Of a stretch of 61,826 nt of DNA, positions 32,499 through 61,826 are shown in pieces. The stretch comes from an uncultured Clostridium sp. Lineage in GTDB: Bacteria > Bacillota > Clostridia > TANB77 > CAG-508. Every line of letters begins with the position of its first letter. Position 1 is the stretch's first letter. The notes beneath the pieces are model-generated. The model saw only the letters and a program-made list of their open reading frames with translations, was not told where the DNA came from and ran no database searches. Made by a program: the position numbers and the translations under genes. The DNA lies in contig USNR01000002.1 of NCBI GenBank assembly GCA_900556135.1, positions 1-61,826 of the forward strand, given 5' to 3'.

Positions 32499-33950
32499 CT
32501 ATTTTTTTAACTCTTCTATAAACATTTTGTTAAGCATTTGTGGATTAGCCTTTCCTTTTGTTTGTTTCATTGCTTGTCCTACTAAAAATCCTAAAGCTTT
32601 ATCTTTACCTGCTTTATAATCTGCTATTGATTGTGGATTTTCGCTTAGTACTTTTAATACTACTTCTTTTATTGCTCCTTCATCTGATATCTGTATCCAG
32701 CCTTTTTCTTTTATAATCTCTTCTGGATCTTTTGTATTTTCCTTTTCTCCTGTAAATAATTCTTCTATTACTTTCTTTCCTATTGCTGAACTAATAGTTC
32801 CTTTATCAATTAGCATCACTAGCTTTGCCAATTCTTTTCCTGTAAAAGGAATATTTTCTGGCTCTAGTTCTTCTTCATTTAATATACGTGAAATATCAGA
32901 TAATATCCAGTTTGCTACTGCCTTTGCATTTTTACATTCTTTTTCTGCTGCTTCAAACAAATTAGACAAATATTTTGAAGCTGTTAGTAATCTAGCATCT
33001 TTTTCAGATAGTTTAAATTCATTCATATATCTTGCTTTTCTACTCTCTGGTAGTTCAGGCAGATTTTTCTTTATATTTTCTACATATTCATCTGATAATC
33101 TAATTGCAACTAAATCTGGATCTGGGAAATATCTATAATCCTGAGCATCCTCTTTATCTCTCATAGAAAATGTTCTGCCAGATACATCATCCCACCTTAA
33201 TGTTTCTTGTTCTATTACTCCTCCATCTTCTATTACCTCAATCTGTCTTGAAACTTCATATTCAATTGCTCTTGAAATAGATTTAAAAGAGTTCATGTTT
33301 TTCATTTCAGTACGCGTTCCATAAGGTGTTCCTGGTTTGTGAACAGATACGTTAACATCAGCTCTTAAAGACCCTTCTTGCATTTTACAATCAGATACTT
33401 CTATATACTCTAATGTTGATTTTAATTTTCGTAAATATTGGTCAGTCTCTTTTGATGACCTAATATCTGGTTCTGAAACTATTTCTATTAAAGGAACTCC
33501 AGCTCTATTTAAATCAACTAAGCTTCCTCCACCAAATTCATTATGATTTAACTTTCCAGCATCTTCTTCTATATGAATTCTTAGAATTCTTATTTGCTTC
33601 TTCTCTCCATTTTCATCTTCAATTTCTATATAACCATTATTGCAAAGAGGTTTATCAAACTGTGATATCTGATATGATTTTGGTAAATCTGGATAAAAAT
33701 AATTTTTTCTATCATTCTTACTATCTCTAGCAATAGAGCAATTAGTTGCAAGTCCTGCCTTTACTGCATATTCCACAACTTTTTCATTTAAAACAGGAAG
33801 TGTTCCTGGCATAGCCATACAAACAGGGCAAGTATGCGCATTTGGTGCAGCACCAAACTCTGTAGGACAACTACAAAATATCTTAGTTTTTGTTGAAAGT
33901 TCTGCATGAACTTCAAGTCCTATTACAACTTCATAATCTTCTTTTGACAT
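32499..33950 (-). CDS. gatB: Asp-tRNA(Asn)/Glu-tRNA(Gln) amidotransferase subunit B
   Basis: 483 aa. VIGLEVHAELSTKTKIFC. C-terminal YqeY-like tail. Confidence 0.95.
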   Translation of the reverse strand: MSKEDYEVVIGLEVHAELSTKTKIFCSCPTEFGAAPNAHTCPVCMAMPGTLPVLNEKVVEYAVKAGLATNCSIARDSKNDRKNYFYPDLPKSYQISQFDKPLCNNGYIEIEDENGEKKQIRILRIHIEEDAGKLNHNEFGGGSLVDLNRAGVPLIEIVSEPDIRSSKETDQYLRKLKSTLEYIEVSDCKMQEGSLRADVNVSVHKPGTPYGTRTEMKNMNSFKSISRAIEYEVSRQIEVIEDGGVIEQETLRWDDVSGRTFSMRDKEDAQDYRYFPDPDLVAIRLSDEYVENIKKNLPELPESRKARYMNEFKLSEKDARLLTASKYLSNLFEAAEKECKNAKAVANWILSDISRILNEEELEPENIPFTGKELAKLVMLIDKGTISSAIGKKVIEELFTGEKENTKDPEEIIKEKGWIQISDEGAIKEVVLKVLSENPQSIADYKAGKDKALGFLVGQAMKQTKGKANPQMLNKMFIEELKK

Positions 33951-33984
33951 TGTATTATTCTCCCTTCATCTATTTTTCTACATC

Positions 33985-35457
33985 TTATTTTTTAAACTCT
34001 GGAGCATATTTCTCTCTAAACTTATACTCTTGTTCAAATGTATATGCTGTATTTAATAAAGTTTCTTCTGAAAATCTATCCCCTATTAATTGCATTCCAA
34101 TAGGCATTCCTTGACTATTTACTCCACATGGAATAGAAATTCCTGGAAGTCCTGCTATATTTACAGAAACAGTACAAATATCTGCTAAATACATTTCTAA
34201 CGGATTATTAGACTTTGTTCCTATTTCAAAAGCAACATTTGGAGAGGTTGGCGTTAATAATACGTCATACTTCTCAAACACTCTGTCAAACTCCTTTTTA
34301 ACTAAAGTACGAACAGCCAAAGCCTTTTTATAATATGCATCATAATATCCTGATGATAAAACATATGTACCAAGAATAATTCTTCTTTTTACTTCTTCAC
34401 CAAAACCTTCTGTTCTTGAGTTTTTAAATAATTCTCTTAAATTGCTATAGTCTTTTGCTCTATATCCATAACGTATTCCATCAAATCTACCTAAATTAGA
34501 GCTAGCTTCAGCACAAGCAATTATATAATATGTTGCTAGTGCATATTCTGCGATATCTAAAGAGCATTCTTCAACAATAGCTCCTAATTTTTTATAAGTT
34601 TCTATAGCCTCTTCTAATTTAGCTTTAACCTCCGGATTTATTCCTTCTCCAAAGTACTCTTTTGGAACTCCTATTTTTAGTCCTTTTACATCACTTTTTA
34701 ATGCTTTTGTATAATCAACTTTTGGTCTTTCTATTGATGTTGTATCTTTTTCATCATGTCCTACTATTAAGTTTAATAACATTGCATTATCTCTTACATC
34801 CTTAGTAATAGGTCCAATTTGATCTAATGATGATGCAAAAGCTACAAGACCATATCTTGAAACTAATCCATATGTTGGTTTTAATCCAACAACTCCACAA
34901 AAACTTGCTGGCTGACGAATAGATCCACCAGTATCAGAACCTAAAGCCCATGGCACTTCACAACCTGCAACTGCTGCTGCACTACCACCTGATGAACCAC
35001 CTGGTACAGTTTCCAACTTCCATGGATTATGAGTTTTATGGAACGCTGAATATTCTGTAGATGCTCCCATTGCAAATTCATCCATATTTAGCTTTCCTAA
35101 ATTAATCATTCCTTCATTGTTTATTTTTTCTATAACAGTTGCATCATAAGGTGATACAAAATTCTCTAGCATTTTAGAAGAACATGTTGTTTTCACACCT
35201 TTTGTACAAATATTATCCTTTATTCCAATGGGAATACCTGCAAAACCCGAATTTTCTTTACCTTCTGCTCTTTTGCTATCTATCTCTTCTGCCTTTTTCA
35301 TTGCATCATCTTCTAATGTTGTAACAAAGGCTTGTACATCTGATTCTTTTTCCTTTATTCTATCTGTATATGCCTTTGTAATTTCGACAGACGTTAATTC
35401 TTTATTCTTCAACTTTTCAACAAGTTCATGTACTGTTAAATTAGTAATATCCATCAA
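33985..35457 (-). CDS. gatA: Asp-tRNA(Asn)/Glu-tRNA(Gln) amidotransferase subunit A
   Basis: 490 aa. Amidase signature [12 protein letters not shown]. Confidence 0.95.
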
Positions 35458-35534
35458 AAATCAATCCTTTCAATCTATTGTTCCACTATATTAGTAATTT
35501 CTAATTCTAAATATACTATTACAAACTCATAAAT

Positions 35535-35822
35535 CTAGTTTATAACCTTTGGTATTTTAAACATGTTTCTTTCTTTTTCAGGAGCGTTAGCAAGTAATGC
35601 TTCATTATCTTCGAAAACCTTTATTTCGTCTTTTCTAAACACATTATAATTTTCATTTGCACCTATTGTTCCTTCCAAACCCTCGATTGGTGCTTTGTTT
35701 ACAACATCTGCAAAATTTAAAATGTCTTGCAAATTTGCAATATATTTATCTACTTCGTCATCTTTAATGTTAAGATTTGCAAGTTTTGCAATGTGTAAAA
35801 TTTCCTCTTTACTAACATTCAT
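35535..35822 (-). CDS. gatC: Asp-tRNA(Asn)/Glu-tRNA(Gln) amidotransferase subunit C
   Basis: MNVSKEEILHIAKLANLNIKDDEV. Start set at ATG 35822 after GGAAAGGAA. It is the first gene of gatCAB. Confidence 0.85.
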   Translation of the reverse strand: MNVSKEEILHIAKLANLNIKDDEVDKYIANLQDILNFADVVNKAPIEGLEGTIGANENYNVFRKDEIKVFEDNEALLANAPEKERNMFKIPKVIN

Positions 35823-35855
35823 ACTATTCACATTCCTTTCCGCTATAACCAAAAA

Positions 35856-35953: not shown

Positions 35954-35982
35954 TTTACATTTCCAGTTTTTTATGCTATACT
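35954..35982 (+). promoter_or_regulatory. sigma-A-type promoter with extended -10 for the 69-aa gene
   Basis: TTTACA (35954-35959), 17 nt, TGcTATACT (-10 at 35977-35982). Followed by the palindrome ATTGGC-N6-GCCAAT at 35992-36009. Confidence 0.55.
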
Positions 35983-36033
35983 AATATTTCAATTGGCAAA
36001 TTGGCCAATATTATATTAAAGGAGTGTTTCTAT

Positions 36034-36243
36034 ATGTTATCAACTCATGTTTTGGCAAGCGAGTCTACTCCTCGCATTGGTCACCCCGTCGTAGCCTTTC
36101 AGGTCGGACGCGAACCCTACAGCATGAAGGTTAGCTGTCAGAAAATCACAACTGTAGATGTTGTAGAGTGTTCAATAGTTGAGGACAATCTGTATCGTAT
36201 TATCGATGCACATGGAAACAGGTACCTTTGTGAAGTAATCTGA
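36034..36243 (+). CDS. hypothetical 69-aa beta-rich protein (5' half about 60% G+C)
   Basis: AAAGGAG lies 9 nt before the ATG at 36034; the tracked ORF starts at TTG 36001. Sequence MLSTHVLASESTPRIGHPVVAFQVGREPYSMKV... Own promoter and terminator. Confidence 0.5.
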   Translation: MLSTHVLASESTPRIGHPVVAFQVGREPYSMKVSCQKITTVDVVECSIVEDNLYRIIDAHGNRYLCEVI

Positions 36244-36262
36244 CATAAAGATTACCTAAGCA

Positions 36263-36312
36263 AAAGCAATAGTTAATTTAACATTCATGTTAAGTTAATT
36301 ATTGCTTTTCTC
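36263..36312 (+). terminator. intrinsic terminator after the 69-aa gene
   Basis: A 20-nt arm AAAGCAATAGTTAATTTAAC (36263-36282) pairs with GTTAAGTTAATTATTGCTTT (36289-36308), then a T-rich tail. Confidence 0.7.
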
Positions 36313-36384
36313 TTATTTCTGGCCAAATTCCAGGCTTCCGTAGATTTTTGTAGTTTTTTGTCGACCATTTGTTTTTTTAATCTC

Positions 36385-36413
36385 TTGCTTTTTTCCAAAT
36401 TTTGTGTTATACT
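36385..36413 (+). promoter_or_regulatory. sigma-A-type promoter with extended -10 in front of the ORF-free structured region
   Basis: TTGCTT (36385-36390), 17 nt, TGtTATACT (-10 at 36408-36413). Predicted start about 36420. Confidence 0.5.
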
Positions 36414-36419
36414 TGTAAT

Positions 36420-36950
36420 CGGTGGTGCATTATTCTAGTAATACACACTAATACGAGGGTGGGGCTAAAAATCCACTAAAGGGCACATCGTTGAAGTTTC
36501 TTGTTTATGCGCGAAATGCCAGTTTTGTGTGTTTTCAGGAAGTAAGATTTTAGGGAAATATGTAATGGCATACATAATTGCTCCCTATCATCGCGGAGAC
36601 TTAAAATAAAATTTTAAGTGTAACCTATGTAGAGTGCCAAGACACAACACATAGTGTAGCCTGTCTTGAGTGATAGTATTGGGATTATATGAATCGTTAT
36701 ATGAAATTGCTATTGCAAAAAAGACTAGTATTAGTTTTATGTATTTCAAGGAAAACTTCTAGGCTGTTTGTTTCAACCATAGAAACATGAAGTTATAAGG
36801 ATTAAGGTACGGATTTAAGTGGCGATCTGGCTTTCTATACAGGATAGAATGTCTACTTTAAAAGGAAACTGCTAATTAGTAATGATTAGTAGTAGATAGA
36901 GAAATTCTGCTAGACCTAAAACCGTAAAATTTACTTGTAATTTTACCATC
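36420..36950 (+). ncRNA. candidate large structured ncRNA (OLE-like by context; class unverified, ends approximate)
   Basis: No ORF of 60 aa or more on either strand across 36244-36991. About 40-43% G+C by hand count, versus about 20% in other spacers. Helices at 36425-36446, 36553-36585, 36600-36618, 36625-36654 and 36924-36946. No terminator before the downstream 4-TM protein gene. Confidence 0.45.
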
Positions 36951-36991
36951 TATAAACACTTTATTTATTAAAGGAGTTTTTTATTTAATTT

Positions 36992-37591
36992 ATGAATCAA
37001 ACTTTAAAAGAAACAAAAAATATAAAAAATAATGAAGTCAAGAAAAGTAATAATAAAGACAAAGCTGATAAATCCAATTTAAAATGGTTTGTCACGGTCT
37101 TTATTACTACTTTTATTTTATCTATTACTTTTTCATTTATTTCAACAAATGCAATAAGTAATTTATCTATATTTCCTGCAATTATAATTTTACTATTAGT
37201 AATTGGTATTGGAATTTTATTTGATATAATTGGTGTTGCAGTTACAGTTGCTGATGAAGATGAATTTCATGCAAAAGCAAGTAAAAAGATTGCTGGTGCA
37301 AAAACCTCTGTAAAACTTATTCGAAATTCAGCCAAAGTTGCTAACTTCTGTGCTGATGTTGTAGGCGATATTTGCGGTGTACTTAGTGGTTCTGTAAGTG
37401 CTCTTATCGCAATTAAAATCATGGAAAGATATAATCTATCTTCTAGTCTCCAATTTATAATTAGTGCATTAGTCGCTTCTGTAACAGTTGGTGGAAAAGC
37501 ATTAGGGAAAAACCTTGCTCAAAAAAAATCCACAAAAATAGTTCATCTTGTAGCCAATGTTTTAAATAAACTGCATCTAAATAAAAATTAA
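36992..37591 (+). CDS. small 4-TM membrane protein (OapA-like by size, topology and position; homology unverified)
   Basis: 199 aa. RBS AAAGGAG. Lys-rich N-terminus, then WFVTVFITTFILSITFSFIS, IFPAIIILLLVIGIGILFDIIGVAVTV, VANFCADVVGDICGVLSGSVSALIAI and LQFIISALVASVTVGG. Confidence 0.6.
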   Translation: MNQTLKETKNIKNNEVKKSNNKDKADKSNLKWFVTVFITTFILSITFSFISTNAISNLSIFPAIIILLLVIGIGILFDIIGVAVTVADEDEFHAKASKKIAGAKTSVKLIRNSAKVANFCADVVGDICGVLSGSVSALIAIKIMERYNLSSSLQFIISALVASVTVGGKALGKNLAQKKSTKIVHLVANVLNKLHLNKN

Positions 37592-37700
37592 AATAGATTT
37601 ATGTAATAATTTTAATATAATAGAATATTTGATAAATTTTTTCTATTATACTTAAAAAATCTAATACAATATTTGAATTTTAGAATTATCTTTAATTTTT

Positions 37701-37727
37701 AAAGGCTTGGATTTAGTCCAAGCCTTT
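37701..37727. terminator. bidirectional intrinsic terminator
   Basis: AAAGGCTTGGA-TTTAG-TCCAAGCCTTT between convergent genes. Confidence 0.75.
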
Positions 37728-37764
37728 ATTAGTTCTTATTGAAATTTTTCAGTTTCGTTCTTAT

Positions 37765-48998: not shown

Positions 48999-49040
48999 AA
49001 GAGCCGACGCACGTGGGTATAATCACGCGCGTCGGCTCTT
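48999..49040. terminator. bidirectional intrinsic terminator
   Basis: GAGCCGACGC (49001-49010) pairs with GCGCGTCGGCTC (49027-49038). Flanked by an A-run and a T-run, between convergent genes. Confidence 0.8.
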
Positions 49041-49045
49041 TTGTT

Positions 49046-49603
49046 TTATAAATATACTGTTTCCGCGCCGAGCAGCTGCGCCTCGTATTCGGAGTGGGTA
49101 ACCGCTATAAGCGTTCTGCCGTTTAAGCCTTGCAATATATGCTTTGCGGCTTTTTCGGTGTTTTCTTTATCAAGCCCCGCAAACGGCTCGTCCAGTACCA
49201 GGCAATCGTATTCAGCTGAAAGCGCGCGGGCTATTGCCACGCGCCGCCGCATACCGCCCGATAACTCGGATGGATATTTTTCGGCTGACTCCCCTACTCC
49301 CAACGCCGAAAGATTATAAAGCGCGGTCTTTTCATCTGCGCCTATCAGCGTTATATTGCCGAGTGCGGTTTTAAATGGCAGCAGTCTGTCCTCTTGAAAA
49401 ACGGCGGACATTCGTGCGCCGCCCGTTTCAATACTGCCGCCGCATGGCTTTTCAAGCCTCAATATCAGCCGTAAAAGGGTGGTTTTTCCGCGTCCGCTTT
49501 CTGCGAAAATACAAATTCGTTTACCGCTCGGAATTTCAAGTGAAAAATTTCCGAAAACGCTTTTATCGGCATAAGAAAAGGAAAGGTTATTTATTTTTAT
49601 CAT
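49046..49603 (-). CDS. ABC transporter ATP-binding protein (short, NitT/TauT type)
   Basis: Walker A SGRGKTTLLRLI. Signature LSGGMRRRVAIARAL. Walker B LVLDEPFAGLD. Confidence 0.85.
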   Translation of the reverse strand: MIKINNLSFSYADKSVFGNFSLEIPSGKRICIFAESGRGKTTLLRLILRLEKPCGGSIETGGARMSAVFQEDRLLPFKTALGNITLIGADEKTALYNLSALGVGESAEKYPSELSGGMRRRVAIARALSAEYDCLVLDEPFAGLDKENTEKAAKHILQGLNGRTLIAVTHSEYEAQLLGAETVYL

Positions 49604-50345
49604 TCAAATACCTCCCCGCCAGCCGCTTTATTATAAGCTCAATAAGCAGCGATAACACCGCCACAACCGCCGTAAGTGCAAAAACGCGCGGCGTTTCAAG
49701 GTACAGCTTTGCGTCCTGTAACAACCTGCCGATTGAATTTATCGGTCGGCAAATAACCTCTGCCGCAACGCCCGATTTCCAGGCAAAGCCCAGTGCATTT
49801 ACTGCCGCCGCCGCAAAAGAGGGCAATATAAGCGGCAGCTTTATTTTAAAAAGTATTTTTATGGGCGACAGCCCGAAAACCTTGCCCAGCTCTATATAGC
49901 CTTTATCGAGGTTAAGTATTCCGTTTTCCACATTCGACCATATCATAGGCAGCACCATTAAAAACGAAATGAACACCGATAAATAGGCACTTTTAATCCA
50001 CACAAGCGCCAGTATTATAAACGAAGCCACGGGAACCGCGCGTATAAGGTGCAAAACAGGCGCGAAAATATCCCTGAAAACGCGAAAACGCGCCGATAAT
50101 ACCGCGCACACCGCGCCGACAATAAGCCCCGATAAATACCCCGCCGTAATTCTGAGCATGCTAAGCAAAACGGCGCGCCAAAATTCGGCTGTTTTTCCAA
50201 GCTCTGCCAATGTTAAAAAAACCGCGCGCGGGTAAGGAATAAGCAATTCTTTGCCCACGGCGGCAGCGGCAAGCTGCCATACCGCAAGCCATAAAAGCGC
50301 CACGGCAGCCCGCCTTAAAATATTCTTTAACTTACTTTGCTTCAT
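49587..50345 (-). CDS. ABC transporter permease (NitT/TauT type)
   Basis: Start set at ATG 50345 (MKQSKLKNILRR), overlapping the end of the binding-protein gene by 14 nt. About 6 TM. Confidence 0.8.
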   Translation of the reverse strand: MKQSKLKNILRRAAVALLWLAVWQLAAAAVGKELLIPYPRAVFLTLAELGKTAEFWRAVLLSMLRITAGYLSGLIVGAVCAVLSARFRVFRDIFAPVLHLIRAVPVASFIILALVWIKSAYLSVFISFLMVLPMIWSNVENGILNLDKGYIELGKVFGLSPIKILFKIKLPLILPSFAAAAVNALGFAWKSGVAAEVICRPINSIGRLLQDAKLYLETPRVFALTAVVAVLSLLIELIIKRLAGRYLNDKNK

Positions 50346-51354
50346 AGTAGAAAGCGTCGTCCGGCAATGCCCCGCCCACGCTCTTGGGGTTAGCGTCAAA
50401 GAGGAACTTTAAATATGCCGAAAGGTCGGTTTTAAGCTCTTTTCCGTCTTCAAATACTATATTGCAGTAGGGCAGAGCCTTTTTGGCTATTGCGGCGGCT
50501 GCAACTATACCGTATTTCTCGCAAAGTGCGGCGGCGGTATCGGGGTCGGAATTAACCGATTTAACCGATTCCTCGTATTCCTCCATAAATATTTTAACCG
50601 CGTCGGGGTTCTGTTCGGCGTATTTCTTGCGAACGACTATGCAGCCCATAACAAGCTTTGTATCGTTCACCTTATCCCACTCTTTGTTCATATCAAGCGC
50701 TATAGTTGAGCCTTGAGCCTTAACGGTAATGGTTGTTGCAACCGGCTGGGGAGCAACCGCGATTATCTTCTCATTCTGCGCAAAGGCGGTAACAAGCTCG
50801 GTCGGCTGCGAAACAAAGTTAAGGGTTACGTCTGTGCCTACCTTCAAGCCGTTCTTTTCAAATATATAGTTTATAATGTATTCGGGGTTTGCGCCCTGAC
50901 CCGTAGCGTATACGGTTTTGCCCTTTAAGGACTTAATGTCGGTTATTTCCTCACCCTTTGTAACCAGACAAAGAACGCCTAAAGTATTAGCCGCAAGCAC
51001 CTTTATGCCGCCCTCGGTCTTTTTGTAAAGGGTTGATGCTAAGTTAGTAGCTATTGCGGCAATATCCGCCTCGCCGTTTGTAAGCTTAGCTACAATTTCA
51101 TCATTGCTGCCAACGGTTGAAACCGTGTAGTTAAGTCTGCCGGTTTTATCCTCCGCCTTTTTCATAAGCGGCGCCAGCCCCATACCGGTAGGTCCGTTAA
51201 GCGCAAAGACATTGCAGGCGGTATTAAGCTTTTCGGGGGTGGAGCTTACGGGAGCCGCCGAGCTTTGCGGGGTGCTGCTTTCGTTCTTTGTGCCGCAGGC
51301 GGCAAATGTAAGCACCATAGCCACAGCCAACAGCATACTGATAATTTTTTTCAT
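50332..51354 (-). CDS. ABC transporter substrate-binding lipoprotein (NMT1/THI5-like)
   Basis: Lipobox LTFAACGTK. 340 aa. First transporter gene after the regulator. Confidence 0.72.
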   Translation of the reverse strand: MKKIISMLLAVAMVLTFAACGTKNESSTPQSSAAPVSSTPEKLNTACNVFALNGPTGMGLAPLMKKAEDKTGRLNYTVSTVGSNDEIVAKLTNGEADIAAIATNLASTLYKKTEGGIKVLAANTLGVLCLVTKGEEITDIKSLKGKTVYATGQGANPEYIINYIFEKNGLKVGTDVTLNFVSQPTELVTAFAQNEKIIAVAPQPVATTITVKAQGSTIALDMNKEWDKVNDTKLVMGCIVVRKKYAEQNPDAVKIFMEEYEESVKSVNSDPDTAAALCEKYGIVAAAAIAKKALPYCNIVFEDGKELKTDLSAYLKFLFDANPKSVGGALPDDAFYYEAK

Positions 51355-51977
51355 TTTTCTGTCACCTTTATCTTATTATTTTCCCTTATTATACTGCCGC
51401 GCTTTTCAAGGGCTTCAAGGCTGCGGTAGAGGCTCGCTCTGCCCAGTCCCAGCATTTTTGCCAGCTCGGTCATACTTACGGGAATAACAGCGTATCCGTT
51501 ATCGTCAGCCGAGAGCGTAAGGTATTTTAGCACCGTATTCTCCGCATCGGAACAGGAAATAACGCTGAGCCTTTTATTAAGAAATCTTATTCTGTCAGAT
51601 AAAAAGGCTATATAGTTTACCGCCGTGACAGGATGCTTTTCAAAAAGCGAAACGAGCGTTTCCTCGGTTATAAAGCATATATCCGAGCTTTCAGCCGCCG
51701 AAACGGTGCTGACGTATGCATCAGCCGTGCCGAAAACCGCCGCCGCCCCAAAGCACGAGCCGGCGTAAATACGTTTCATAACCATTTGCTGCGAATTGCT
51801 TGTAACCGCCGAAACAGACCCCGATTTTACAAAACCGATGGCGCGGCGAAAGCTTTCGGGCGAATAAACAATTTCACCCTTTTTAAATTTCTCCGCTTCG
51901 GGCAAAGCCGAAATTATTTCGCGCTTTTCATTCTCTTGCAAACCGTCAAGTAAAAATAAGCCGTCGTATACTGACAT
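51351..51977 (-). CDS. Crp/Fnr-family transcriptional regulator
   Basis: cNMP-binding-like N-terminus (FKKGEIVYSPES...GFVKSGSVSA). C-terminal HTH MTELAKMLGLGRASLYRSLEALEKRGSI. ATGA overlap with the next gene. Confidence 0.8.
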   Translation of the reverse strand: MSVYDGLFLLDGLQENEKREIISALPEAEKFKKGEIVYSPESFRRAIGFVKSGSVSAVTSNSQQMVMKRIYAGSCFGAAAVFGTADAYVSTVSAAESSDICFITEETLVSLFEKHPVTAVNYIAFLSDRIRFLNKRLSVISCSDAENTVLKYLTLSADDNGYAVIPVSMTELAKMLGLGRASLYRSLEALEKRGSIIRENNKIKVTEK

Positions 51978-51994
51978 TAAGACTCCTAAATTTT

Positions 51995-52010
51995 TGTCTC
52001 AAATGAGACA
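51995..52010 (-). promoter_or_regulatory. 7-2-7 palindrome TGTCTCA-nn-TGAGACA at the start of the Crp-like operon transcript
   Basis: Lies between the promoter TTGACT-16-TGcTATAAT (-10 at 52025-52020, minus strand) and the AGGAG RBS. Confidence 0.4.
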
Positions 52011-52227
52011 GTTTATTATATTATAGCATAAGAAACGCATAAGTCAAGCAAAATTTATTTTTCAGCGTCGCGTGTTTTAATTATTCAAAAGCTCAATCCG
52101 TATATACCGTGATATTAAAGGCGCTGTCCTTTAATATATGCCGGCTTTGCCGGTTTCTTATACAGAACCCCTTATCTGTATAAGAGAATATGCCGAGAGA
52201 TAAACACTCACGGCATATTTTTTGTAT

Positions 52228-53565
52228 TTAAGCTATGTCACGTTTTTTTCGCTGTATAATCACAAACGCTGCGGCGCATATTAGTGCCGAAAGCAGCGAG
52301 CCCGCCGCAGTTGCAAGCCCCATAGGATAGAGTGTTTCGGGGAACATTGAAGACATTAAATAAGAACCGGGAACACGCACAAGCAGTATTGCAATTATAT
52401 TGTGCATAAACGAAATTCCCGATTTACCGCAGGCGCAGAAATACCCGCTGAACGCAAAGTGTATTCCGGCGAAAAGGCAATCCCACGCGTAGCCGCGCAG
52501 GTACCCGCCGCCGAGCCGTATGACTGCCGCGCTGTCAGTAAACAGCGATACCGCCCTGCCCGATAAAAACTGCATAATAACCGCTACCGTGCCGCCGAAG
52601 CCTGCGGCAATAAAAATTGCGTAAAGCAGCGTTTTTCTTGCACGTTCGGGCTTTTGCGCCCCGATATTCTGCGCGCCGAGCGCAGAAACGGCTGAAAGCA
52701 TAGAGGAGGGAACAAGGAACAAAAAGCCGATTATTTTTTCAACAATTCCCACCGCCGCCGCGTCATTAAGCCCGCGGCGGTTTGCTATTACGGTGATTAC
52801 CATAAAGGCAATTTGAATAAAACCGTCCTGCATGGCAACCGGCACGCCTATTTTAAGAATTTTTCCGGTTATTTGCTTATCGGGCTTTAGGTCCGCTTTT
52901 TTAAGCGCAAAGTCAGTTTTGCGCATTTTTACAAAGATAAGCGATATAACAACGCTTACAGCCTGAGATAGCGTTGTGCCGAGCGCCGCTCCCGCTGGGC
53001 CCATACCGAGAGCGCCTATAAACAGGTAATCGAGCGCTATATTGGCGGCGCATGCAACCGCTATAAAGTACATGGGGCTTTTGCTGTCCCCCATACCGCG
53101 GAAAACGGCGCTTATAATATTATACGCCGTTATAAACGGTATGCCTATAAAGCAAATCGTAAGGTAATCCACCGTGCCCGCAGCAGCGTCTGCGGGGGTT
53201 GAAACGGCGGAAACTATGGTGTTTCGCAGAATAAGCAGCAAAAATGTCAGAGTCACGGAAAGCCCCATAAACAGCGTTACGGTGTTACCCGTAAAAAGCG
53301 CCGCTTTGCGGCTGTCCTTTCCGCCCACAGCCTGACCGATATTTACCGTGGCGCCCATGGCAAGCCCCACTATCATTACCGTTAACATATGCATAACCTG
53401 CGAGCCCACGGAAACCGCGGTAGTATCGGCAACGCTGCCGAACTGACCTATTATGAGCAGATCCGCCATTCCGTAAAGGGTTTGCAGGAAAAAAGATAAA
53501 AGGTACGGCAGCGAGAAGAACAAAAGGTTCTTCATAACGCTGCCGCTTGTAAGCTCCCGTTTCAT
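52228..53565 (-). CDS. MATE-family efflux transporter
   Basis: 445 aa, 12 TM. LQTLYGMADLLIIGQFGSVADTTAVSVGSQV. Starts 8 nt after the livF stop. Confidence 0.85.
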   Translation of the reverse strand: MKRELTSGSVMKNLLFFSLPYLLSFFLQTLYGMADLLIIGQFGSVADTTAVSVGSQVMHMLTVMIVGLAMGATVNIGQAVGGKDSRKAALFTGNTVTLFMGLSVTLTFLLLILRNTIVSAVSTPADAAAGTVDYLTICFIGIPFITAYNIISAVFRGMGDSKSPMYFIAVACAANIALDYLFIGALGMGPAGAALGTTLSQAVSVVISLIFVKMRKTDFALKKADLKPDKQITGKILKIGVPVAMQDGFIQIAFMVITVIANRRGLNDAAAVGIVEKIIGFLFLVPSSMLSAVSALGAQNIGAQKPERARKTLLYAIFIAAGFGGTVAVIMQFLSGRAVSLFTDSAAVIRLGGGYLRGYAWDCLFAGIHFAFSGYFCACGKSGISFMHNIIAILLVRVPGSYLMSSMFPETLYPMGLATAAGSLLSALICAAAFVIIQRKKRDIA

Positions 53566-53573
53566 ACAGAGGC

Positions 53574-54272
53574 TTAACCCCCGAGGTAAGCTTTTTTAAC
53601 CGAGTCGCTTTGTGCAAGCTCTGCACCCGTGCCCGAAAGGGTAATTCTGCCCGATTCAAGAACATAAGCGCGGTCGGCTATTCTGAGCGCCATTTCGGCG
53701 TTCTGTTCAACCAAAAGAATGGTAGTGCCCGCCTCGTGCAGTTCCTTAATTATATCAAATATCTGCTGAACAAGTATAGGTGCTAAGCCCATTGAGGGTT
53801 CGTCGAGCATTAAGAGCTTGGGTTTACTCATAAGCGCCCTGCCCATGGCGAGCATTTGCTGCTCGCCGCCCGAAAGCGTGCCGGCAATCTGATTTTTGCG
53901 GTGCTTAAGGCGCGGAAAACGCTCAAAAACATCCGCTATGCCTTCTTTAACATAGCCCGGCTGTGTATAAGCGCCCATTTCCAGATTTTCAAGCACGGTC
54001 ATATGCAAAAATATACGTCTGCCCTCGGGAACGTGAGCCAAACCCTTTGATACCAGCTTGTGCGCCTCGGCGTGGGTAATATCCTCGTTCATAAGGGTTA
54101 TACTGCCGGTTTTTGAGTGCATAAGCCCCGAAATGGTTTTAAGGGTGGTTGACTTGCCCGCGCCGTTTGCGCCTATAAGGGCTACAATTTCATCCTCGTG
54201 CACTTCAAGCGAAATGCCTTTAAGCGCGTGAATATTGCCGTAATAAACGTTTATATCATTTACTTTCAGCAT
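53574..54272 (-). CDS. livF: branched-chain amino acid ABC transporter ATP-binding protein
   Basis: LIGANGAGKSTTLK and LSGGEQQMLAMGRAL. ATG at 54272 lies 9 nt after AAGGAGG. Confidence 0.9.
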   Translation of the reverse strand: MLKVNDINVYYGNIHALKGISLEVHEDEIVALIGANGAGKSTTLKTISGLMHSKTGSITLMNEDITHAEAHKLVSKGLAHVPEGRRIFLHMTVLENLEMGAYTQPGYVKEGIADVFERFPRLKHRKNQIAGTLSGGEQQMLAMGRALMSKPKLLMLDEPSMGLAPILVQQIFDIIKELHEAGTTILLVEQNAEMALRIADRAYVLESGRITLSGTGAELAQSDSVKKAYLGG

Positions 54273-55107
54273 TGCCGTCAGCCTCCTTTTTCTTTCCGAG
54301 ATACGCCTCAATAACCTTGGGGTTAGCCTTAATTTCATCCGGCGTGCCCTTTGCGATTATTTTACCGTGATCAAGCACGCAAATGCCCTCGCAAATGTTC
54401 ATAACAAGGTTCATATCGTGCTCAATAAGCATTATTGCAATATTGAAGGTATCGCGTATACGGCGAATATTTTCCATAAGCTCCGCCGTTTCTGAGGGGT
54501 TCATACCCGCCGCGGGCTCGTCAAGCAAAATAATGCTCGGGTTGGTGGCAAGCGCTCTTACAATTTCAAGTCTTCTCTGCGCACCGTAGGGCAGCGAGCC
54601 TGCCTCCTCGTTTGCAACATCTGCCATTGAGAAAAAGTCAAGCAGCTCTATTGCGCGCTCATTAGCCGTTTTTTCGGCTTTTTTATAGCCGAGACCGTGG
54701 GTGACCGAGGCGAAAAAGCCCTCTTTAATGGAGTTATGCAAGCCTACCTTAACATTATCAAGCACCGACATATTGGAAAACAGGCGTATGTTTTGAAAAG
54801 TACGCGCAATTCCCATACGGTTTACCTGCGAGGTCGTTTTGCCGGCAGTTGACTTTCCGTCCAAAATAATAGAACCGCGCGAGGGCTGATAAACGTTTGT
54901 AAGCAGGTTGAAAACTGTGGTTTTGCCTGCGCCGTTAGGGCCTATAAGACCGGCTATTTCGGTTTTGCCTACGGTAAGTGAAAATTCGTCAACTGCGGTA
55001 AGTCCGCCGAAATCAATACCCAAATGGTGAGTTTCAAGCACGGGGCGTTTATCAACATCGCGCTCGGGAACAATCGCGCCCGAGGGGTAAGGTACCATTT
55101 TATCCAT
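54256..55107 (-). CDS. livG: branched-chain amino acid ABC transporter ATP-binding protein
   Basis: GPNGAGKTTVFNLL and LPYGAQRRLEIVRAL. Confidence 0.9.
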   Translation of the reverse strand: MDKMVPYPSGAIVPERDVDKRPVLETHHLGIDFGGLTAVDEFSLTVGKTEIAGLIGPNGAGKTTVFNLLTNVYQPSRGSIILDGKSTAGKTTSQVNRMGIARTFQNIRLFSNMSVLDNVKVGLHNSIKEGFFASVTHGLGYKKAEKTANERAIELLDFFSMADVANEEAGSLPYGAQRRLEIVRALATNPSIILLDEPAAGMNPSETAELMENIRRIRDTFNIAIMLIEHDMNLVMNICEGICVLDHGKIIAKGTPDEIKANPKVIEAYLGKKKEADGNAESK

Positions 55108-56197
55108 TTGATTTTACCTCCCCGTTTTTATTCTTGCGGAACATTTCGTTTAATTTAATCTTAGTGTTTTCAAAAAAGAGCTTTGCTTTTGAGCTGTTTT
55201 TAAGCAGCATTACCGCAATAAGCAGTATTGCGTAAATAAGCATACGGTAGTCGCCCGCGTTTATGTTGCGTAAAAGCTCGGGCAGCATATAAAGCAGGGC
55301 GGTTGCTATAATAGTACCGAAAATATTGCCCATTCCGCCAAGCACCACGAAAACAAGAATTAAAATTGAAGTGTTAAAGTTGAACTTTTCAGCCGCGATA
55401 GCCGAGAAATTCATAGCGTAAAGCACGCCCGCCATGCCTGCCAGGGCAGCTGAGGTAATAAATGCGGTAAGCTTGTACTTTGTAATGCTTATACCTACCG
55501 ATTCGGCGGCTATGCGGTTATCCCTTATAGCGGTTATAGCGCGGCCCGAACGGCTGTAAATAAGGTTAATTACCACAAACAGGGTGAAAAGAATAAGCAC
55601 AAAGCCTGCCGTAAAGGTGGCAATTTTGGTTATACCCACCGCGCCCTGCGGGCCGTTGAGAATAATTCTGCCGTTTTTCATACCGAGGCTTGCCGCGTCC
55701 TTCATATTAACGTGAAGCCCGCTTTTATCAATACCCACATAAAGGCAGTTTATTATATTCTTTATAATTTCACCGAATGCGAGGGTAACTATTGCAAGAT
55801 AGTCGCCCGAAAGCCGCAGAACGGGTATACCGATTAAAAAGCCCATAATTCCCGCGATTATACCGCCCGCAACCATTGCGATAACAAGTCTTACGGGGTC
55901 GGACCCGACCTTATCCTGCAGAGCCGCCGTGACTATGGCTCCCGTGAACGCGCCCACGCTCATAAAGCCGGCGTGACCGAGAGACAACTCACCCAAAACA
56001 CCGACGGTCAGGTTAAGCGAGATAGCCATAACTATATATGCGCAGATAGGAATTAACTGACCGGAAATGGAGTTGCTTATCATTCCCGCGTTTTGCAGCG
56101 GGAAAAGTATTGCAAATAAAGCTATTACAAGACCGTAGGTTTTAATATTTGTTCGGGCATATTTGCTAAGCCCTTTGTATTTTGAAGCGATACTCAT
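55100..56197 (-). CDS. livM: branched-chain amino acid ABC transporter permease
   Basis: Start set at ATG 56197 (MSIASKYK) after GAGGTGGG. Multi-TM LivM-type permease. Confidence 0.88.
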   Translation of the reverse strand: MSIASKYKGLSKYARTNIKTYGLVIALFAILFPLQNAGMISNSISGQLIPICAYIVMAISLNLTVGVLGELSLGHAGFMSVGAFTGAIVTAALQDKVGSDPVRLVIAMVAGGIIAGIMGFLIGIPVLRLSGDYLAIVTLAFGEIIKNIINCLYVGIDKSGLHVNMKDAASLGMKNGRIILNGPQGAVGITKIATFTAGFVLILFTLFVVINLIYSRSGRAITAIRDNRIAAESVGISITKYKLTAFITSAALAGMAGVLYAMNFSAIAAEKFNFNTSILILVFVVLGGMGNIFGTIIATALLYMLPELLRNINAGDYRMLIYAILLIAVMLLKNSSKAKLFFENTKIKLNEMFRKNKNGEVKSNG

Positions 56198-56207
56198 ATT
56201 TCCCACC

Positions 56208-57089
56208 TCACACCTTTTCCGTTATCTTCTTGCCGAGCAAGCCGGTAGGCTTAACAAGGAGTACTATTATAAGCACCGAGAAAACAATAGCGTCGGACAG
56301 CTGGGTGGAAATATACGCCCTGCCGAGAATTTCTATAACGCCCAAAAGTATGCCGCCTATCATGGCTCCGGGAATTGAGCCTATACCGCCGAAAACCGCC
56401 GCCGTAAACGCCTTTATACCGGGCATTGAGCCGGTGGTAGGTATCAGCACCGGGTACGCAGAGCAAAGCAGAACGCCCGCTATTGCAGCCAAAGCGCTGC
56501 CTATTGCAAAGGTCATTGAAATGGTGCGGTTGGTGTTTATGCCCATAAGCAAAGCGGCGTCCTTATCCTCAGATACCGCGCGCATTGCCTTACCCATTTT
56601 ACCCTTTTTGGTAAAGAAGGTAAGTCCCACCATTATAAGCACGCAGGCGGCAACGGTAACGAGCGATTCGGGCGTTATTATAAGCTTGCCGTCAAATAAT
56701 GAAATGGATTTAAACGGCACTACCGATGTGAACGCACGCGGAGTGCTGCCCCAGATTATAAGCGCCGCATTCTGTAAAAAGTAGCTCACGCCGATAGCCG
56801 TTATAAGCACGGCAAGCGATGTTGCCTTTCTCAAAGGACGGTAAGCAAGGCCCTCAATAAGAATACCCAATACCGTACAAACAGCCATTGAAATAAGTAT
56901 AGACAGCACCGTGGGAATACCTAAGGTTGTGGAGCATATGTAAGAAACATACGCGCCTACCATAATAACGTCGCCGTGCGCAAAGTTGAGCATTTTCGCA
57001 ATGCCGTAAACCATTGTATAGCCGAGCGCTATTATGGCGTAAACGCTGCCGAGACTTATTCCGTTTATTAAGTTGGAAATTAAAGTCAT
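56208..57089 (-). CDS. livH: branched-chain amino acid ABC transporter permease
   Basis: 293 aa. MTLISNLINGISLGSVYAIIALGYTMVYG is a typical LivH N-terminus. Confidence 0.9.
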   Translation of the reverse strand: MTLISNLINGISLGSVYAIIALGYTMVYGIAKMLNFAHGDVIMVGAYVSYICSTTLGIPTVLSILISMAVCTVLGILIEGLAYRPLRKATSLAVLITAIGVSYFLQNAALIIWGSTPRAFTSVVPFKSISLFDGKLIITPESLVTVAACVLIMVGLTFFTKKGKMGKAMRAVSEDKDAALLMGINTNRTISMTFAIGSALAAIAGVLLCSAYPVLIPTTGSMPGIKAFTAAVFGGIGSIPGAMIGGILLGVIEILGRAYISTQLSDAIVFSVLIIVLLVKPTGLLGKKITEKV

Positions 57090-57163
57090 TGCTTACACCC
57101 CTTTTAAAAATGGGAAAACGGGGTCATATAAGACCCCCTTTCCCCTATTAAACCGAATACGGA

Positions 57164-58375: not shown

Positions 58376-58605
58376 TTTAAACAACCTCTTTCAAAGTTTT
58401 TTATATTTAACAGCCCGAAAGCTGAAAAACAACAATAATAAAAAATGACCTTGCCTTTTTTTGAAAAGCAAAGTCAGCAGGTTTACAAGCCTTTTCAGCT
58501 TTTAACAGGCTCATAAAAAGCCGTTTTGCTTTTCATATTTATATGTTTTAAAATTCCAATCGCTCTTATTATAATTAGCTGTAGGAAAATAATGGCGCTA
58601 ATTAC

Positions 58606-58636
58606 AAAAAGGGACACTGTGTTGACAACAGTGCCC
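58606..58636 (-). terminator. intrinsic terminator inside the liv operon leader
   Basis: Minus strand: GGGCACUGU-UGUCAAC-ACAGUGUCCC followed by UUUUU. It lies about 150 nt downstream of promoter TTGACA (58790-58785), 17 nt, TAAAAT (58767-58762). Confidence 0.55.
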
Positions 58637-58898
58637 TCGTTAAGACGTATTAAAGAAGCAGACGAAAATTCAGGTGCGGTATTGGCATCTGTTGACTGTT
58701 CATATGATTTTGTCATAAATGAAACACGCATTGTCTTTCGTCCTTTCCTTTTGTTGCACCCATTTTATCACAAGCATATAATCTTGTCAAGTACACTTTA
58801 GCGATTTAAACTAATTTTCCGCTTTTTAATAAAAATATACGAAATTAAACTCGCATTTTGTAGAATATTGAAGAAAGATTAAAATATGCAAATTTGCT

Positions 58899-58916
58899 AT
58901 TGCATAATTATTCATT
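58899..58916. promoter_or_regulatory. ARG-box-like palindrome overlapping the argG promoter
   Basis: The reverse strand reads AATGAATAATTATGCAA, compared with the consensus TNTGAATWWWWATTCANW. It overlaps TTGCAT (58900-58905), 17 nt, TATACT (58923-58928). Confidence 0.45.
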
Positions 58917-58972
58917 GTATGCTATACTTTATGCAAAGAAAACAAGCAAATATGCAATCGGAGGAATATATT

Positions 58973-60202: not shown

Positions 60203-60259
60203 ATTTTAAAATCTATGCCGCCTGAATTTTCAGACGGCATAATTATAGGAGTGCGGAAA

Positions 60260-61651: not shown

Positions 61652-61771
61652 GGGTTAAAAATGTTATAAAAACCGATATTAACACCTTTTTTAAAAAATT
61701 AAAGCAAAAAATGAATTTTGGGGCTTGACTTTATGCTTTTAATATGGTATAGTAGTTAGGCGCTGAAAAAT

Positions 61772-61826
61772 GCTGGTGTAGCTCAGTTGGTAGAGCAGCT
61801 GATTTGTAATCAGCAGGTCGGGGGTT
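61772..61826 (+). tRNA. tRNA-Thr (anticodon UGU), 3' end cut by the window
   Basis: GCTGGTG-TA-GCTC-AGTTGGTA-GAGC-A-GCTGA-TTTGTAA-TCAGC-AGGTC-GGGGGTT. Anticodon loop is TT-TGT-AA. Promoter TTGACT-17-TATAGT lies just upstream. Confidence 0.85.

What the first reader, a model, noticed from the sequence alone, without database searches (positions are those of the whole stretch)
36244..37591. ORF-free, promoter-bearing, hairpin-dense ~0.53-kb region feeding into a 4-TM membrane protein gene: candidate large ncRNA-protein (OLE/OapA-like) locus
The 748-nt gap 36244-36991 is the longest stretch of the AT-rich part with no ORF of 60 aa or more on either strand, and it is not ordinary spacer. (i) It begins after a strong terminator (36263-36312). 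(ii) A near-consensus promoter TTGCTT-17-TGtTATACT sits at 36385-36413 and predicts a start near 36420. (iii) My hand counts give 40-43% G+C for 36421-36540, versus about 20% in other spacers here. (iv) It is packed with local helices: 36425-36446; 36553-36585 (nested GGGA/TCCC plus TATGTA/TACATA); 36600-36618 (CTTAAAAT/ATTTTAAG); 36625-36654 (CTATGT..GTG/CAC..ACATAG); and 36924-36946 (GTAAAATT/AATTTTAC). (v) No U-tract terminator precedes the AAAGGAG RBS of 36992..37591, so the RNA and that gene should be co-transcribed. The gene encodes a ~200-aa protein with a Lys-rich N-terminus, four predicted TM helices and an ADVVGD (DxxxD) motif. A ~0.55-0.6 kb ornate RNA immediately upstream of and co-oriented with a small 4-TM protein in an anaerobic Firmicute is the arrangement described for OLE RNA and its membrane anchor OapA. 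The preceding 69-aa beta-rich protein could be a further small RNA-binding partner (OapB-type), but I cannot show homology. I cannot reproduce the OLE consensus from memory, so the class is inferred from context. If it is not OLE, this is an unclassified large ncRNA.
Basis: partly seen in the sequence, partly recalled or inferred. Interest (0 to 1): 0.8.

Follow-up and report, generated by a model that had tools for sequence, protein, structure and literature searches.

The report
OLE RNA with its OapA gene

Summary
Window 36406-36965 (+) matches Rfam OLE (RF01071) end to end at 334 bits (threshold 50).

- **Conservation:** All 87 related loci I fetched have an OLE homolog on the same strand directly upstream of a homolog of the 199-aa gene. 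Across 75 relatives the consensus structure pairs in 90% of cells, against 36-48% for shifted controls.
- **Transcription:** No terminator lies between the RNA and the gene.
- **Protein:** It has the published OapA hallmarks: four TM helices, an invariant DxxxD, a sub-threshold CNNM match, and archaeal CorB as the best structural match.
- **Form:** This is a reduced OLE of the "variant 1" type reported for the uncultured gut order TANB77. P7 is short. The distal P9 with its palindromic dimerisation loop is missing. P13 lacks the GNRA loop and bulge that bind OapB.
- **Upstream ORF:** The 69-aa ORF is an orphan, not OapB.

Novelty is low. The class, the gene pairing and this reduced variant are all published, and a routine Rfam scan finds the locus.

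The parts
36385..36413 (+). Promoter of the ole-oapA unit: -35 TTGCTT (36385-36390), 17-nt spacer, extended -10 TGtTATACT (36405-36413). Predicted start near 36420.
   Evidence: Read from the sequence. Conserved in position in 75 of 75 relatives (alignment). Not listed by the consensus scan because the -35 matches only 3 of 6 bases.
36406..36965 (+). OLE RNA gene as matched by Rfam RF01071. The likely mature RNA is about 36420-36951 (~530 nt), bounded by the terminal helix.
   Evidence: 334.3 bits (gathering score 50), E = 1.5e-94, model 1-616/616, not truncated. Covariation across 75 relatives.
36421..36426 (+). 5' strand of the terminal helix. It pairs with 36945-36950 (ACCAUC).
   Evidence: 100% of cells paired, 2 of 6 pairs with compensatory changes. 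Not part of the Rfam consensus structure.
36440..36454 (+). 5' strands of P3 (36440-36444) and P3.1 (36448-36454). They pair with 36741-36745 and 36728-36734, giving 12 bp in all. This is the helix proposed in the literature to cross the membrane.
   Evidence: 89% and 92% of cells paired, and 11 of 12 pairs have changes on both sides. Slid controls pair in 28-53%. A 12-bp length is what PMC12265935 cites.
36458..36477 (+). P4 hairpin with the A-rich loop CUAAAAAU. This is a dimerisation contact in the cryo-EM models.
   Evidence: Invariant in 75 of 75 relatives. Its role is taken from PMC12265935.
36487..36496 (+). 5' strand of the alternative k-turn (the OapC/bS21 site in H. halodurans): A83 U84 C85, bulge GUU, then G89 A90 A91 G92. 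The partner strand is 36543-36548 (U-AAGAU).
   Evidence: Position mapping. The C85/G144 equivalents and the tandem G.A / A.A are retained, and one nucleotide (model U141) is deleted. Variants are tabulated. The site is defined in PMC9723947.
36497..36542 (+). P5/P5.1 hairpin. Its loop UGCCA (36517-36521) is complementary to the P6.1 loop.
   Evidence: Helix 2 (92% paired, 7 pairs with double changes). The loop is invariant. The kissing-loop role is from PMC12265935.
36546..36592 (+). P6/P6.1 hairpin, loop UGGCA (36566-36570).
   Evidence: Helices 3 and 4. The loop is invariant.
36600..36618 (+). P7, shortened to about 6-7 bp (CUUAAAAU/AUUUUAAG). About 25 model positions are deleted.
   Evidence: Helix 5.
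36625..36654 (+). P8 hairpin, carrying the conserved GAGUGCCAAGACAC motif.
   Evidence: Helices 6 and 7.
36663..36725 (+). P9, truncated. The distal arm with the palindromic (GGCC or AGCU) kissing loop is absent.
   Evidence: 40 model positions are replaced by 4 nt. 56 of 75 relatives have the palindrome; 19 of 75, including the window, lack it.
36789..36944 (+). 3' domain (P12 to P15). P13 is 36833-36849 (UUCUAU-ACAGG-AUAGAA), with no GNRA loop and no bulge. The P14.1 loop is GUAA at 36879-36882.
   Evidence: Helices 13-19. Only 2 of 75 relatives have a GNRA loop on P13. The P14.1 G-N-A-A is invariant. The OapB site is defined in PMC7936274.
36970..36976 (+). Ribosome-binding site AAAGGAG of oapA. 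The junction from the end of the OLE terminal helix to the ATG is 41 nt.
   Evidence: Sequence. No terminator in the junction.
36992..37591 (+). oapA homolog, 199 aa: Lys-rich N-terminus, four TM helices, DVVGD at residues 122-126, basic loop at residues 87-118.
37700..37728 (+). Intrinsic terminator that ends the ole-oapA unit.
   Evidence: 13-bp stem with 5 G-C pairs and a T-rich tail.

Best explanation
This is an ole-oapA locus of an uncultured gut member of the Clostridia, most likely of the order TANB77.

**Shown here**
- A conserved sigma-70-type promoter with an extended -10 starts transcription near 36420.
- The roughly 530-nt transcript segment 36420-36951 is an OLE RNA.
- It runs, with no terminator, into a gene for a four-TM protein with the OapA signature. 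The unit ends at the terminator at 37700-37728.
- The RNA keeps the terminal helix, the 12-bp P3/P3.1 helix, the P4 A-rich loop and the complementary P5.1/P6.1 loops. It also keeps the k-turn core nucleotides and the whole 3' domain, including the P14.1 GNRA loop.
- It has lost most of P7, the distal P9 arm with its self-complementary loop, and the GNRA loop plus bulge of P13.

**Inferred from work on Halalkalibacterium halodurans and two Clostridium OLE RNAs (PMC12265935, PMC11332333)**
- The RNA is cut out of, or coexists with, the ole-oapA transcript.
- It dimerises through the P4 and P5.1/P6.1 contacts.
- OapA, a distant CNNM/CorB-type putative divalent-cation transporter, binds it and holds it at the membrane.
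- The complex helps the cell cope with stresses such as excess Mg2+, alcohols, cold or poor carbon sources.
- Because the OapB site and the P9 arch are missing, this organism probably runs a stripped-down particle built mainly from OLE and OapA.
For: - **RNA identity:** Rfam OLE at 334.3 bits over the full model. The same family is found in all ten related loci scanned with Rfam.
- **Linkage:** An OLE homolog lies on the same strand, ending just upstream of the oapA homolog, in 87 of 87 loci. 80 of these came from a scan of named genomes.
- **Structure:** The Rfam structure pairs in 90.0% of cells, against 36-48% for slid controls. 68 pairs change on both sides, against 19-36. The covariation score is 0.278, against 0.05-0.08.
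- **Extra helices:** P3, P3.1 and the terminal helix pair in 93.9% of cells, against 28-53%.
- **Promoter:** Conserved in 75 of 75 relatives.
- **No junction terminator:**
- **Protein:**
  - The Pfam CNNM hit is just under threshold (23.1 bits against 28.4), the pattern published for OapA.
  - D122 and D126 are invariant in 32 homologs.
  - The protein has four TM segments and a basic loop.
  - The top three PDB fold hits are MtCorB 7M1T/7M1U. 7M1U is the match reported for H. halodurans OapA.
- **Reduced form and host:**
  - The reduced stems are shown and agree with the 'variant 1' description for TANB77.
  - A close relative is Clostridium sp. CAG:245. Genus CAG-245 belongs to TANB77.
Against: - There are no expression data, so the RNA ends, any processing and its abundance are unverified.
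- I could not align the protein directly with the H. halodurans OapA sequence, because no reference sequence or curated model is available in the tools. The Foldseek E-value to CorB is weak (8.6e-3, TM 0.48).
- P8 is not obviously shorter than the Rfam model, so the fit to 'variant 1' is three of four listed features.
- The k-turn has a one-nucleotide deletion on its 3' strand, so it is uncertain whether an L7Ae-type protein can bind.
- Whether the genome lacks oapB, oapC or mpfA was not checked, because only the window was available.
- The biochemical function of OLE RNA is unknown in any organism, so the functional part is extrapolation.
Confidence: 0.95

Rival explanations
1. The structured region is only a long cis-acting leader (riboswitch-like or attenuator) that controls the downstream membrane-protein gene. 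It is not a stable RNA that works with the protein.
For: The RNA and the gene share one promoter and are separated by only 41 nt with no terminator. The RBS lies in a weak hairpin.
Against: - The region is a full-length match to OLE, which is known to be an abundant, stable, membrane-bound RNA in an RNP.
- The junction hairpin is no better than shuffled sequence (z = -0.13).
- About 18 of 70 relatives have a terminator-like hairpin with a U tract between OLE and oapA. This fits a separable RNA product better than a leader.
Confidence: 0.03
2. It is a decaying, non-functional remnant of OLE in a genome-reduced symbiont.
For: It has lost the distal P9 arm, most of P7 and the OapB-binding loop of P13. 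Still shorter forms exist in relatives: L037 has 375 nt, and L038 matches only the 3' domain.
Against: - Hundreds of positions are invariant across 75 species.
- Compensatory changes maintain 68 of 131 consensus pairs, and the promoter is conserved.
- The partner gene is intact and highly conserved, with 63-77% identity and 47 invariant columns.
- The losses are clean deletions of peripheral arms, not scattered damage.
Confidence: 0.02
3. It is an unclassified large ncRNA that only resembles OLE by context.
For: None after testing.
Against: The covariance-model score is nearly seven times the family threshold and covers the full model.
Confidence: 0.003

Closest known systems
OLE RNA (Rfam RF01071), 'variant 1' form described for TANB77 and other clades (Fernando & Breaker 2024, PMC11332333)
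   Same: - Full-length covariance-model match.
- The same conserved blocks: P4 A-rich loop, P5.1/P6.1 loops, the 3' domain, and a 12-bp P3/P3.1.
- oapA immediately downstream.
- Host is an anaerobic member of the Bacillota.
- Shortened P7 and P9, and a missing OapB site on P13, as stated for variant 1.
   Different: - P8 is about as long as in the Rfam model, not clearly shortened.
- Within the clade sampled here, the window belongs to a minority (19 of 75) that has lost the palindromic P9 loop altogether.
- The loci sampled here sit next to gatCAB in the window and the close relatives examined. In H. halodurans the gene lies inside a larger gene cluster transcribed as one polycistronic RNA (PMC12265935).
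OapA (OLE-associated protein A) of Halalkalibacterium halodurans
   Same: - Four TM helices, a DxxxD motif and a basic cytoplasmic segment.
- Weak similarity to the CNNM domain, and structural similarity to archaeal CorB.
- Position directly after ole.
   Different: The N-terminal Lys-rich tail varies in length among relatives.
MpfA / CorB / CNNM divalent-cation transporters (Pfam PF01595 plus CBS and CorC domains)
   Same: The transmembrane region resembles the CNNM domain. The Pfam hit covers residues 65-195 against profile positions 1-128, and MtCorB is the best fold match.
   Different: The score is below the Pfam threshold. There are no CBS or CorC domains. The protein has four TM helices rather than three. 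It has a DxxxD motif, which CNNM domains lack (PMC11332333).

Membership tests
OLE RNA (RF01071) | Covariance-model match above the curated threshold over the whole model | tested here: met
   334.3 bits against a gathering score of 50, model 1-616/616, E = 1.5e-94.
OLE RNA (RF01071) | Conserved multi-helix secondary structure supported by covariation | tested here: met
   90% of cells paired against 36-48% for slid controls. 68 of 131 pairs have changes on both sides. P3, P3.1 and the terminal helix pair in 93.9% against 28-53%.
OLE RNA (RF01071) | Highly conserved loops used for dimerisation: P4 A-rich loop and complementary P5.1/P6.1 loops | tested here: met
   CUAAAAAU, UGCCA and UGGCA are present and invariant in 75 relatives. 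Their roles are taken from PMC12265935.
OLE RNA (RF01071) | Self-complementary P9 loop (the fourth dimerisation contact, the 'arch') | tested here: not met
   The distal P9 is deleted in the window and in 18 other relatives. 56 of 75 relatives have a GGCC or AGCU palindrome. This is a feature of full-length OLE, and variant forms are known to have a short P9.
OLE RNA (RF01071) | OapB-binding site: P13 with a GNRA tetraloop and a single bulged nucleotide | tested here: not met
   P13 here is UUCUAU-ACAGG-AUAGAA, with no bulge. Only 2 of 75 relatives have a GNRA loop on P13. This matches the published variant 1. The weak secondary site, the P14.1 GNRA loop, is retained.
OLE RNA (RF01071) | K-turn flanking P5 (the OapC/bS21 site): C85-G144 pair, 3-nt bulge, tandem sheared pairs | tested here: inconclusive
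   The core nucleotides are present at 36487-36496 and 36543-36548, but model U141 is deleted. Protein binding cannot be judged from sequence.
OLE RNA (RF01071) | oapA gene as the immediate downstream neighbour, in an anaerobic or extremophilic member of the Bacillota | tested here: met
   87 of 87 loci. Nearly all records are titled as uncultured gut or rumen Clostridia; a few carry other family names. CAG-245 belongs to TANB77.
OLE RNA (RF01071) | Expressed as an abundant, discrete ~0.6-kb RNA that localises to the membrane | not testable with these tools
   No transcript or localisation data are available.
OapA | Four transmembrane helices | tested here: met
   Hydropathy cores lie at about residues 33-55, 64-82, 123-144 and 149-171. 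The AlphaFold helices match.
OapA | DxxxD motif (absent from CNNM domains) | tested here: met
   DVVGD at residues 122-126. D122 and D126 are invariant in 32 homologs. The criterion is from PMC11332333.
OapA | Distant, sub-threshold similarity to the CNNM domain, and a CorB-like fold | tested here: met
   PF01595 at 23.1 bits against a threshold of 28.4. The top three PDB fold hits are MtCorB 7M1T/7M1U, with probability 1.00 and TM 0.44-0.48.
OapA | Cluster of basic residues on the cytoplasmic face | tested here: met
   There are 7 Lys/Arg in residues 87-118. K98 is invariant, and K95, K104, K108 and K115 are nearly invariant. The membrane topology itself was not determined.
OapA | Sequence homology to the experimentally studied H. 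halodurans OapA, and binding to OLE RNA | not tested
   No reference sequence, curated HMM or solved structure is available in the tools. PDB and NCBIfam searches were empty or irrelevant.
OapB (YbzG), for the 69-aa ORF 36034-36243 | KOW-motif beta-barrel protein with widespread homologs | tested here: not met
   No Pfam or NCBIfam hit. No match to any PDB sequence at E <= 10. Only 2 homolog clusters. The low-confidence model gives no meaningful fold hits.

The most novel reading that the evidence does not exclude
The orphan 69-aa beta-rich protein has its own promoter, an operator-like palindrome and its own terminator. It lies immediately upstream of ole, in a genome whose OLE RNA has lost the OapB site. 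It could be a lineage-specific replacement RNA-binding partner of this reduced OLE particle. Nothing supports this beyond adjacency, and relatives carry unrelated genes or none in the same slot.
Probability: 0.03. Interest if true: 0.5.

Novelty: already known. Interest (0 to 1): 0.15.

Why it matters
OLE is one of the largest and best-conserved bacterial RNAs whose biochemical function is still unknown. Recent cryo-EM work suggests it may span the membrane. This locus adds no new class.

It is, however, a clean natural example of a trimmed-down version. It has about 530 nt, no P9 arch and no OapB site, and it is fused transcriptionally to oapA by a 41-nt junction. Its host is a prevalent but uncultured human-gut lineage. 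Such minimal forms show which parts of the RNA are dispensable: P7, distal P9 and the P13 loop. They also show which parts are never lost: P3/P3.1, the P4 loop, the P5.1/P6.1 loops and the 3' domain core. A minimal form could be a convenient construct for structural or reconstitution work.

For the genome scan, the result is that reading raw sequence alone correctly recognised a known RNA class.

Tried and rejected
- **Promoter scan:** I did not take that as evidence against it, because positional conservation in 75 of 75 relatives is stronger evidence.
- **Junction hairpin:**
  - My own crude terminator scan flagged a hairpin in the window's OLE-oapA junction that includes the RBS.
  - I rejected it: it is -3.9 kcal/mol and no better than shuffled sequence, and the standard scan does not call it.
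- **Naming OapA by sequence:**
  - PDB and NCBIfam searches with the 199-aa protein gave nothing useful.
  - The 5.8-billion-protein search gave only one source name among the listed hits, 'hypothetical protein'.
  - OapA identity therefore rests on published hallmarks, not on a named homolog.
- **69-aa ORF:**
  - Family, PDB, homolog and fold searches all came back empty, so the OapB idea is rejected.
  - A comparison with L003 suggests a real but fast-evolving gene (about 10 synonymous and 7 nonsynonymous changes, plus an in-frame 6-nt indel).
- **Partners in the window:** I looked for OapB, OapC or bS21 among the small ORFs. Only L28, S20, SpoIIID and unrelated families turned up. The rest of the genome was not available.
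36425-36446 and 36924-36946 are rejected as structural elements, because those segments pair elsewhere in the consensus.
Full report
**1. What is in the sequence.**
The stretch 36244-36991 has no ORF of 60 aa or more on either strand. At 748 nt it is the longest such gap in the whole 61.8-kb window; the next is 490 nt.

- It starts after a strong terminator at 36263-36308. That terminator closes a small 69-aa gene.
- It ends at the RBS AAAGGAG (36970-36976) of a 199-aa ORF at 36992-37591.
- G+C reaches 42.5% at 36420-36539. The AT-rich part of the window averages about 30%, and nearby spacers are 11-25%.

**2. Identity of the RNA.**
A scan of the whole window against Rfam 15 gives one strong hit: OLE (RF01071) at 36406-36965 on the + strand. 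The score is 334.3 bits against a threshold of 50, with E = 1.5e-94. The match covers model positions 1-616 of 616 and is not truncated. A permissive scan of 36200-37100 finds no other family at E <= 1.

**3. Related loci.**
- The 199-aa protein is encoded on an NCBI metagenome-assembled genome, GCA_902476995.1 (contig CABSFN010000002.1). The gene order there matches the window.
- A scan of one genome per species found 581 stretches that encode relatives. The best 80 are nearly all titled as uncultured gut or rumen Clostridia, including Clostridium sp. CAG:245 and CAG:780; a few carry other family names.
- Genus CAG-245 belongs to the uncultured order TANB77 (PMC11680825). The host is therefore most likely a TANB77 bacterium, which is an inference.
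- In all 87 loci fetched, nhmmer finds an OLE homolog on the same strand, ending just upstream of the protein gene.
- Rfam confirms OLE in all ten loci I scanned with it.

**4. Structure and covariation.**
I transferred the Rfam consensus structure onto the window sequence. This gives 131 pairs, of which 13 are non-canonical. I then counted those pairs on a MAFFT alignment of 75 distinct relatives.

| Measure | Consensus structure | Partners slid by 1-3 columns |
|---|---|---|
| Cells that pair | 90.0% | 36-48% |
| Pairs with changes on both sides | 68 | 19-36 |
| Covariation score | 0.278 | 0.05-0.08 |

The Rfam structure lacks the long-range helices described in recent papers, so I looked for them by eye and tested them.
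- The terminal helix is 36421-36426 with 36945-36950.
- P3 is 36440-36444 with 36741-36745.
- P3.1 is 36448-36454 with 36728-36734.
- Together these pair in 93.9% of cells, against 28-53% for slid controls. 13 of the 18 pairs have changes on both sides.
- P3 plus P3.1 is 12 bp. This is the length quoted for the helix proposed to cross the membrane (PMC12265935).

**5.
Three of the five are real consensus helices: P6/P6.1, P7 and P8. The other two are chance local complements in segments that pair long-range instead.

**6. Transcription unit.**
- The proposed promoter (TTGCTT, 17-nt spacer, TGtTATACT, 36385-36413) is missed by the consensus scan, because the -35 matches only 3 of 6 bases.
- In 75 of 75 relatives a -10 box within one mismatch of TATAAT lies just upstream of the invariant GGTGCA. 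65 are exact and 55 have the TG extension. In 74 of 75 it ends 9-11 nt before GGTGCA.
- All 75 have TTG at -35 with a 16-18 nt spacer.
- The predicted start, near 36420, coincides with the first base of the terminal helix.
- Between the 3' strand of that helix (ending at 36950) and the ATG at 36992 there are 41 nt and no terminator.
- The only hairpin there is -3.9 kcal/mol with z = -0.13.
- A good terminator follows the gene at 37700-37728.

In this organism the RNA and the gene must therefore be co-transcribed. A discrete RNA would have to be made by processing, which is an inference. About 18 of 70 relatives do have a terminator-like hairpin with a U tract in the junction, so the arrangement varies within the clade.

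**7. The protein.**
- It has four hydrophobic segments, and 9 Lys in its first 31 residues. It also has a basic loop at residues 87-118, and DVVGD at residues 122-126.
- D122 and D126 are invariant in an alignment of 32 homologs.
- Pfam gives only a sub-threshold CNNM hit, 23.1 bits against 28.4.
- An AlphaFold model (mean pLDDT 73.8) has the archaeal CNNM protein MtCorB (7M1T, 7M1U) as its top three PDB matches.
- Fernando & Breaker 2024 describe OapA in the same terms (PMC11332333). It scores just below MpfA against PF01595, has four TM helices and has a DxxxD motif that CNNM domains lack. Its best structural match is 7M1U.
- I could not align it directly with the H. halodurans protein. That criterion remains untested.

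**8. Which kind of OLE.**
Compared with the model, several elements are reduced.
- P7 is cut to about 6-7 bp (36600-36618).
- Forty model positions in distal P9 are replaced by 4 nt.
- The four loop positions of P13 are deleted.
- P13 here is UUCUAU-ACAGG-AUAGAA (36833-36849). It has no GNRA loop and no bulge, the two features needed for OapB binding (PMC7936274). Only 2 of 75 relatives have a GNRA loop there.
- The P14.1 GNRA loop (GUAA, 36879-36882) is invariant.
- The distal P9 in 56 of 75 relatives carries a palindrome: GGCC, or AGCU, which is also self-complementary. This matches the P9-P9 kissing loop seen by cryo-EM. The window and 18 relatives lack it.
- The other dimer contacts are intact and invariant: the P4 loop CUAAAAAU, and the P5.1 loop UGCCA opposite the P6.1 loop UGGCA.
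- The k-turn core nucleotides are present, but one nucleotide is deleted on the 3' strand. Binding of an L7Ae-type protein cannot be judged.

This pattern agrees with the 'variant 1' OLE RNAs reported mainly from TANB77. Those have shorter P7-P9, often lack the OapB site, and occur in organisms that largely lack OapB and OapC. P8 is not clearly shortened here.

**9. The 69-aa ORF (36034-36243).**
- It has its own promoter (35954-35982), an operator-like palindrome (35992-36009), an RBS and a terminator.
- Its G+C is unusually high, about 45-49%.
- It has no family hit or PDB sequence hit. Only two near-identical homolog clusters exist. Its low-confidence all-beta model gives no meaningful fold match.
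- Against L003, whose OLE is identical to the window's, it shows about 10 synonymous and 7 nonsynonymous changes plus an in-frame 6-nt indel. It is probably a real, fast-evolving gene.
- Relatives have a 162-aa bPH_2 protein, or nothing called, in this slot.
- It is not OapB.

**10. Mechanism and verdict.**
Shown: a conserved promoter drives an OLE RNA that is co-transcribed with an OapA-type gene. The RNA keeps the core helices and three of the four dimer contacts.

Inferred from H. halodurans genetics and Clostridium cryo-EM (PMC12265935):
- The RNA dimerises.
- OapA, a putative divalent-cation transporter related to CNNM/MpfA, holds it at the membrane.
- The complex supports stress tolerance.
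- This lineage uses a reduced particle without OapB.

The class, the ole-oapA pairing and this reduced variant are all published, and a routine Rfam scan finds the locus. The finding is correct but already known, and interest is low.

Noticed in passing
window 36034-36243 (with promoter 35954-35982, palindrome 35992-36009, terminator 36263-36308): An orphan 69-aa beta-rich ORF with 45-49% G+C in a ~30% G+C background, transcribed as its own unit. Only two near-identical homolog clusters exist among 5.8 billion proteins. Compared with L003 it diverges far more than its flanks: about 10 synonymous and 7 nonsynonymous changes, plus an in-frame 6-nt indel.
   Followed up: yes
window 1-49000 versus 49000-61826: There is a sharp compositional break: 29.7% G+C before about 49 kb and 46.7% after. 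This could be a chimeric MAG contig or an acquired island.
   Followed up: no
L037:3289-3663 and L038:3706-3862: Two relatives next to oapA homologs carry still more reduced OLE forms. One is a 375-nt RNA that spans the whole model at 183 bits. In the other, only model positions 436-595 (the 3' domain) match, at 100 bits.
   Followed up: partly
OLE-oapA junctions of L009, L011, L022, L040, L041, L046, L047, L068, L080-L082, L085 and others: About 18 of 70 relatives have a terminator-like hairpin with a U tract between OLE and oapA. The window and most others have none. The degree of transcriptional coupling between the RNA and its partner gene therefore varies within the clade.
   Followed up: partly
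alignment A2 columns ~385-400 (distal P9 of relatives, e.g. L066, L070, L075, L078, L079, L083): The P9 loop palindrome is GGCC in most relatives but AGCU in six. This change keeps self-complementarity and fits the P9-P9 kissing interaction seen by cryo-EM.
   Followed up: partly
window 32499-35852 (-) and loci L004, L006: In the window and the close relatives examined, ole-oapA lies divergently next to gatCAB. The slot between gatC and ole holds variable cargo: the 69-aa orphan here, a 162-aa bPH_2 protein in L006, and nothing called in L004. L004 and L006 each also have an extra gene between gatC and gatA.
   Followed up: partly
L018, L029, L048 (record titles): A few loci with near-identical ole-oapA arrangements carry NCBI titles such as Bacteroidaceae, Erysipelotrichaceae or Lachnospiraceae bacterium. 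These are probably mis-binned or mis-named MAGs, consistent with the remark in PMC11680825 that traditional taxonomy does not resolve TANB77.
   Followed up: no
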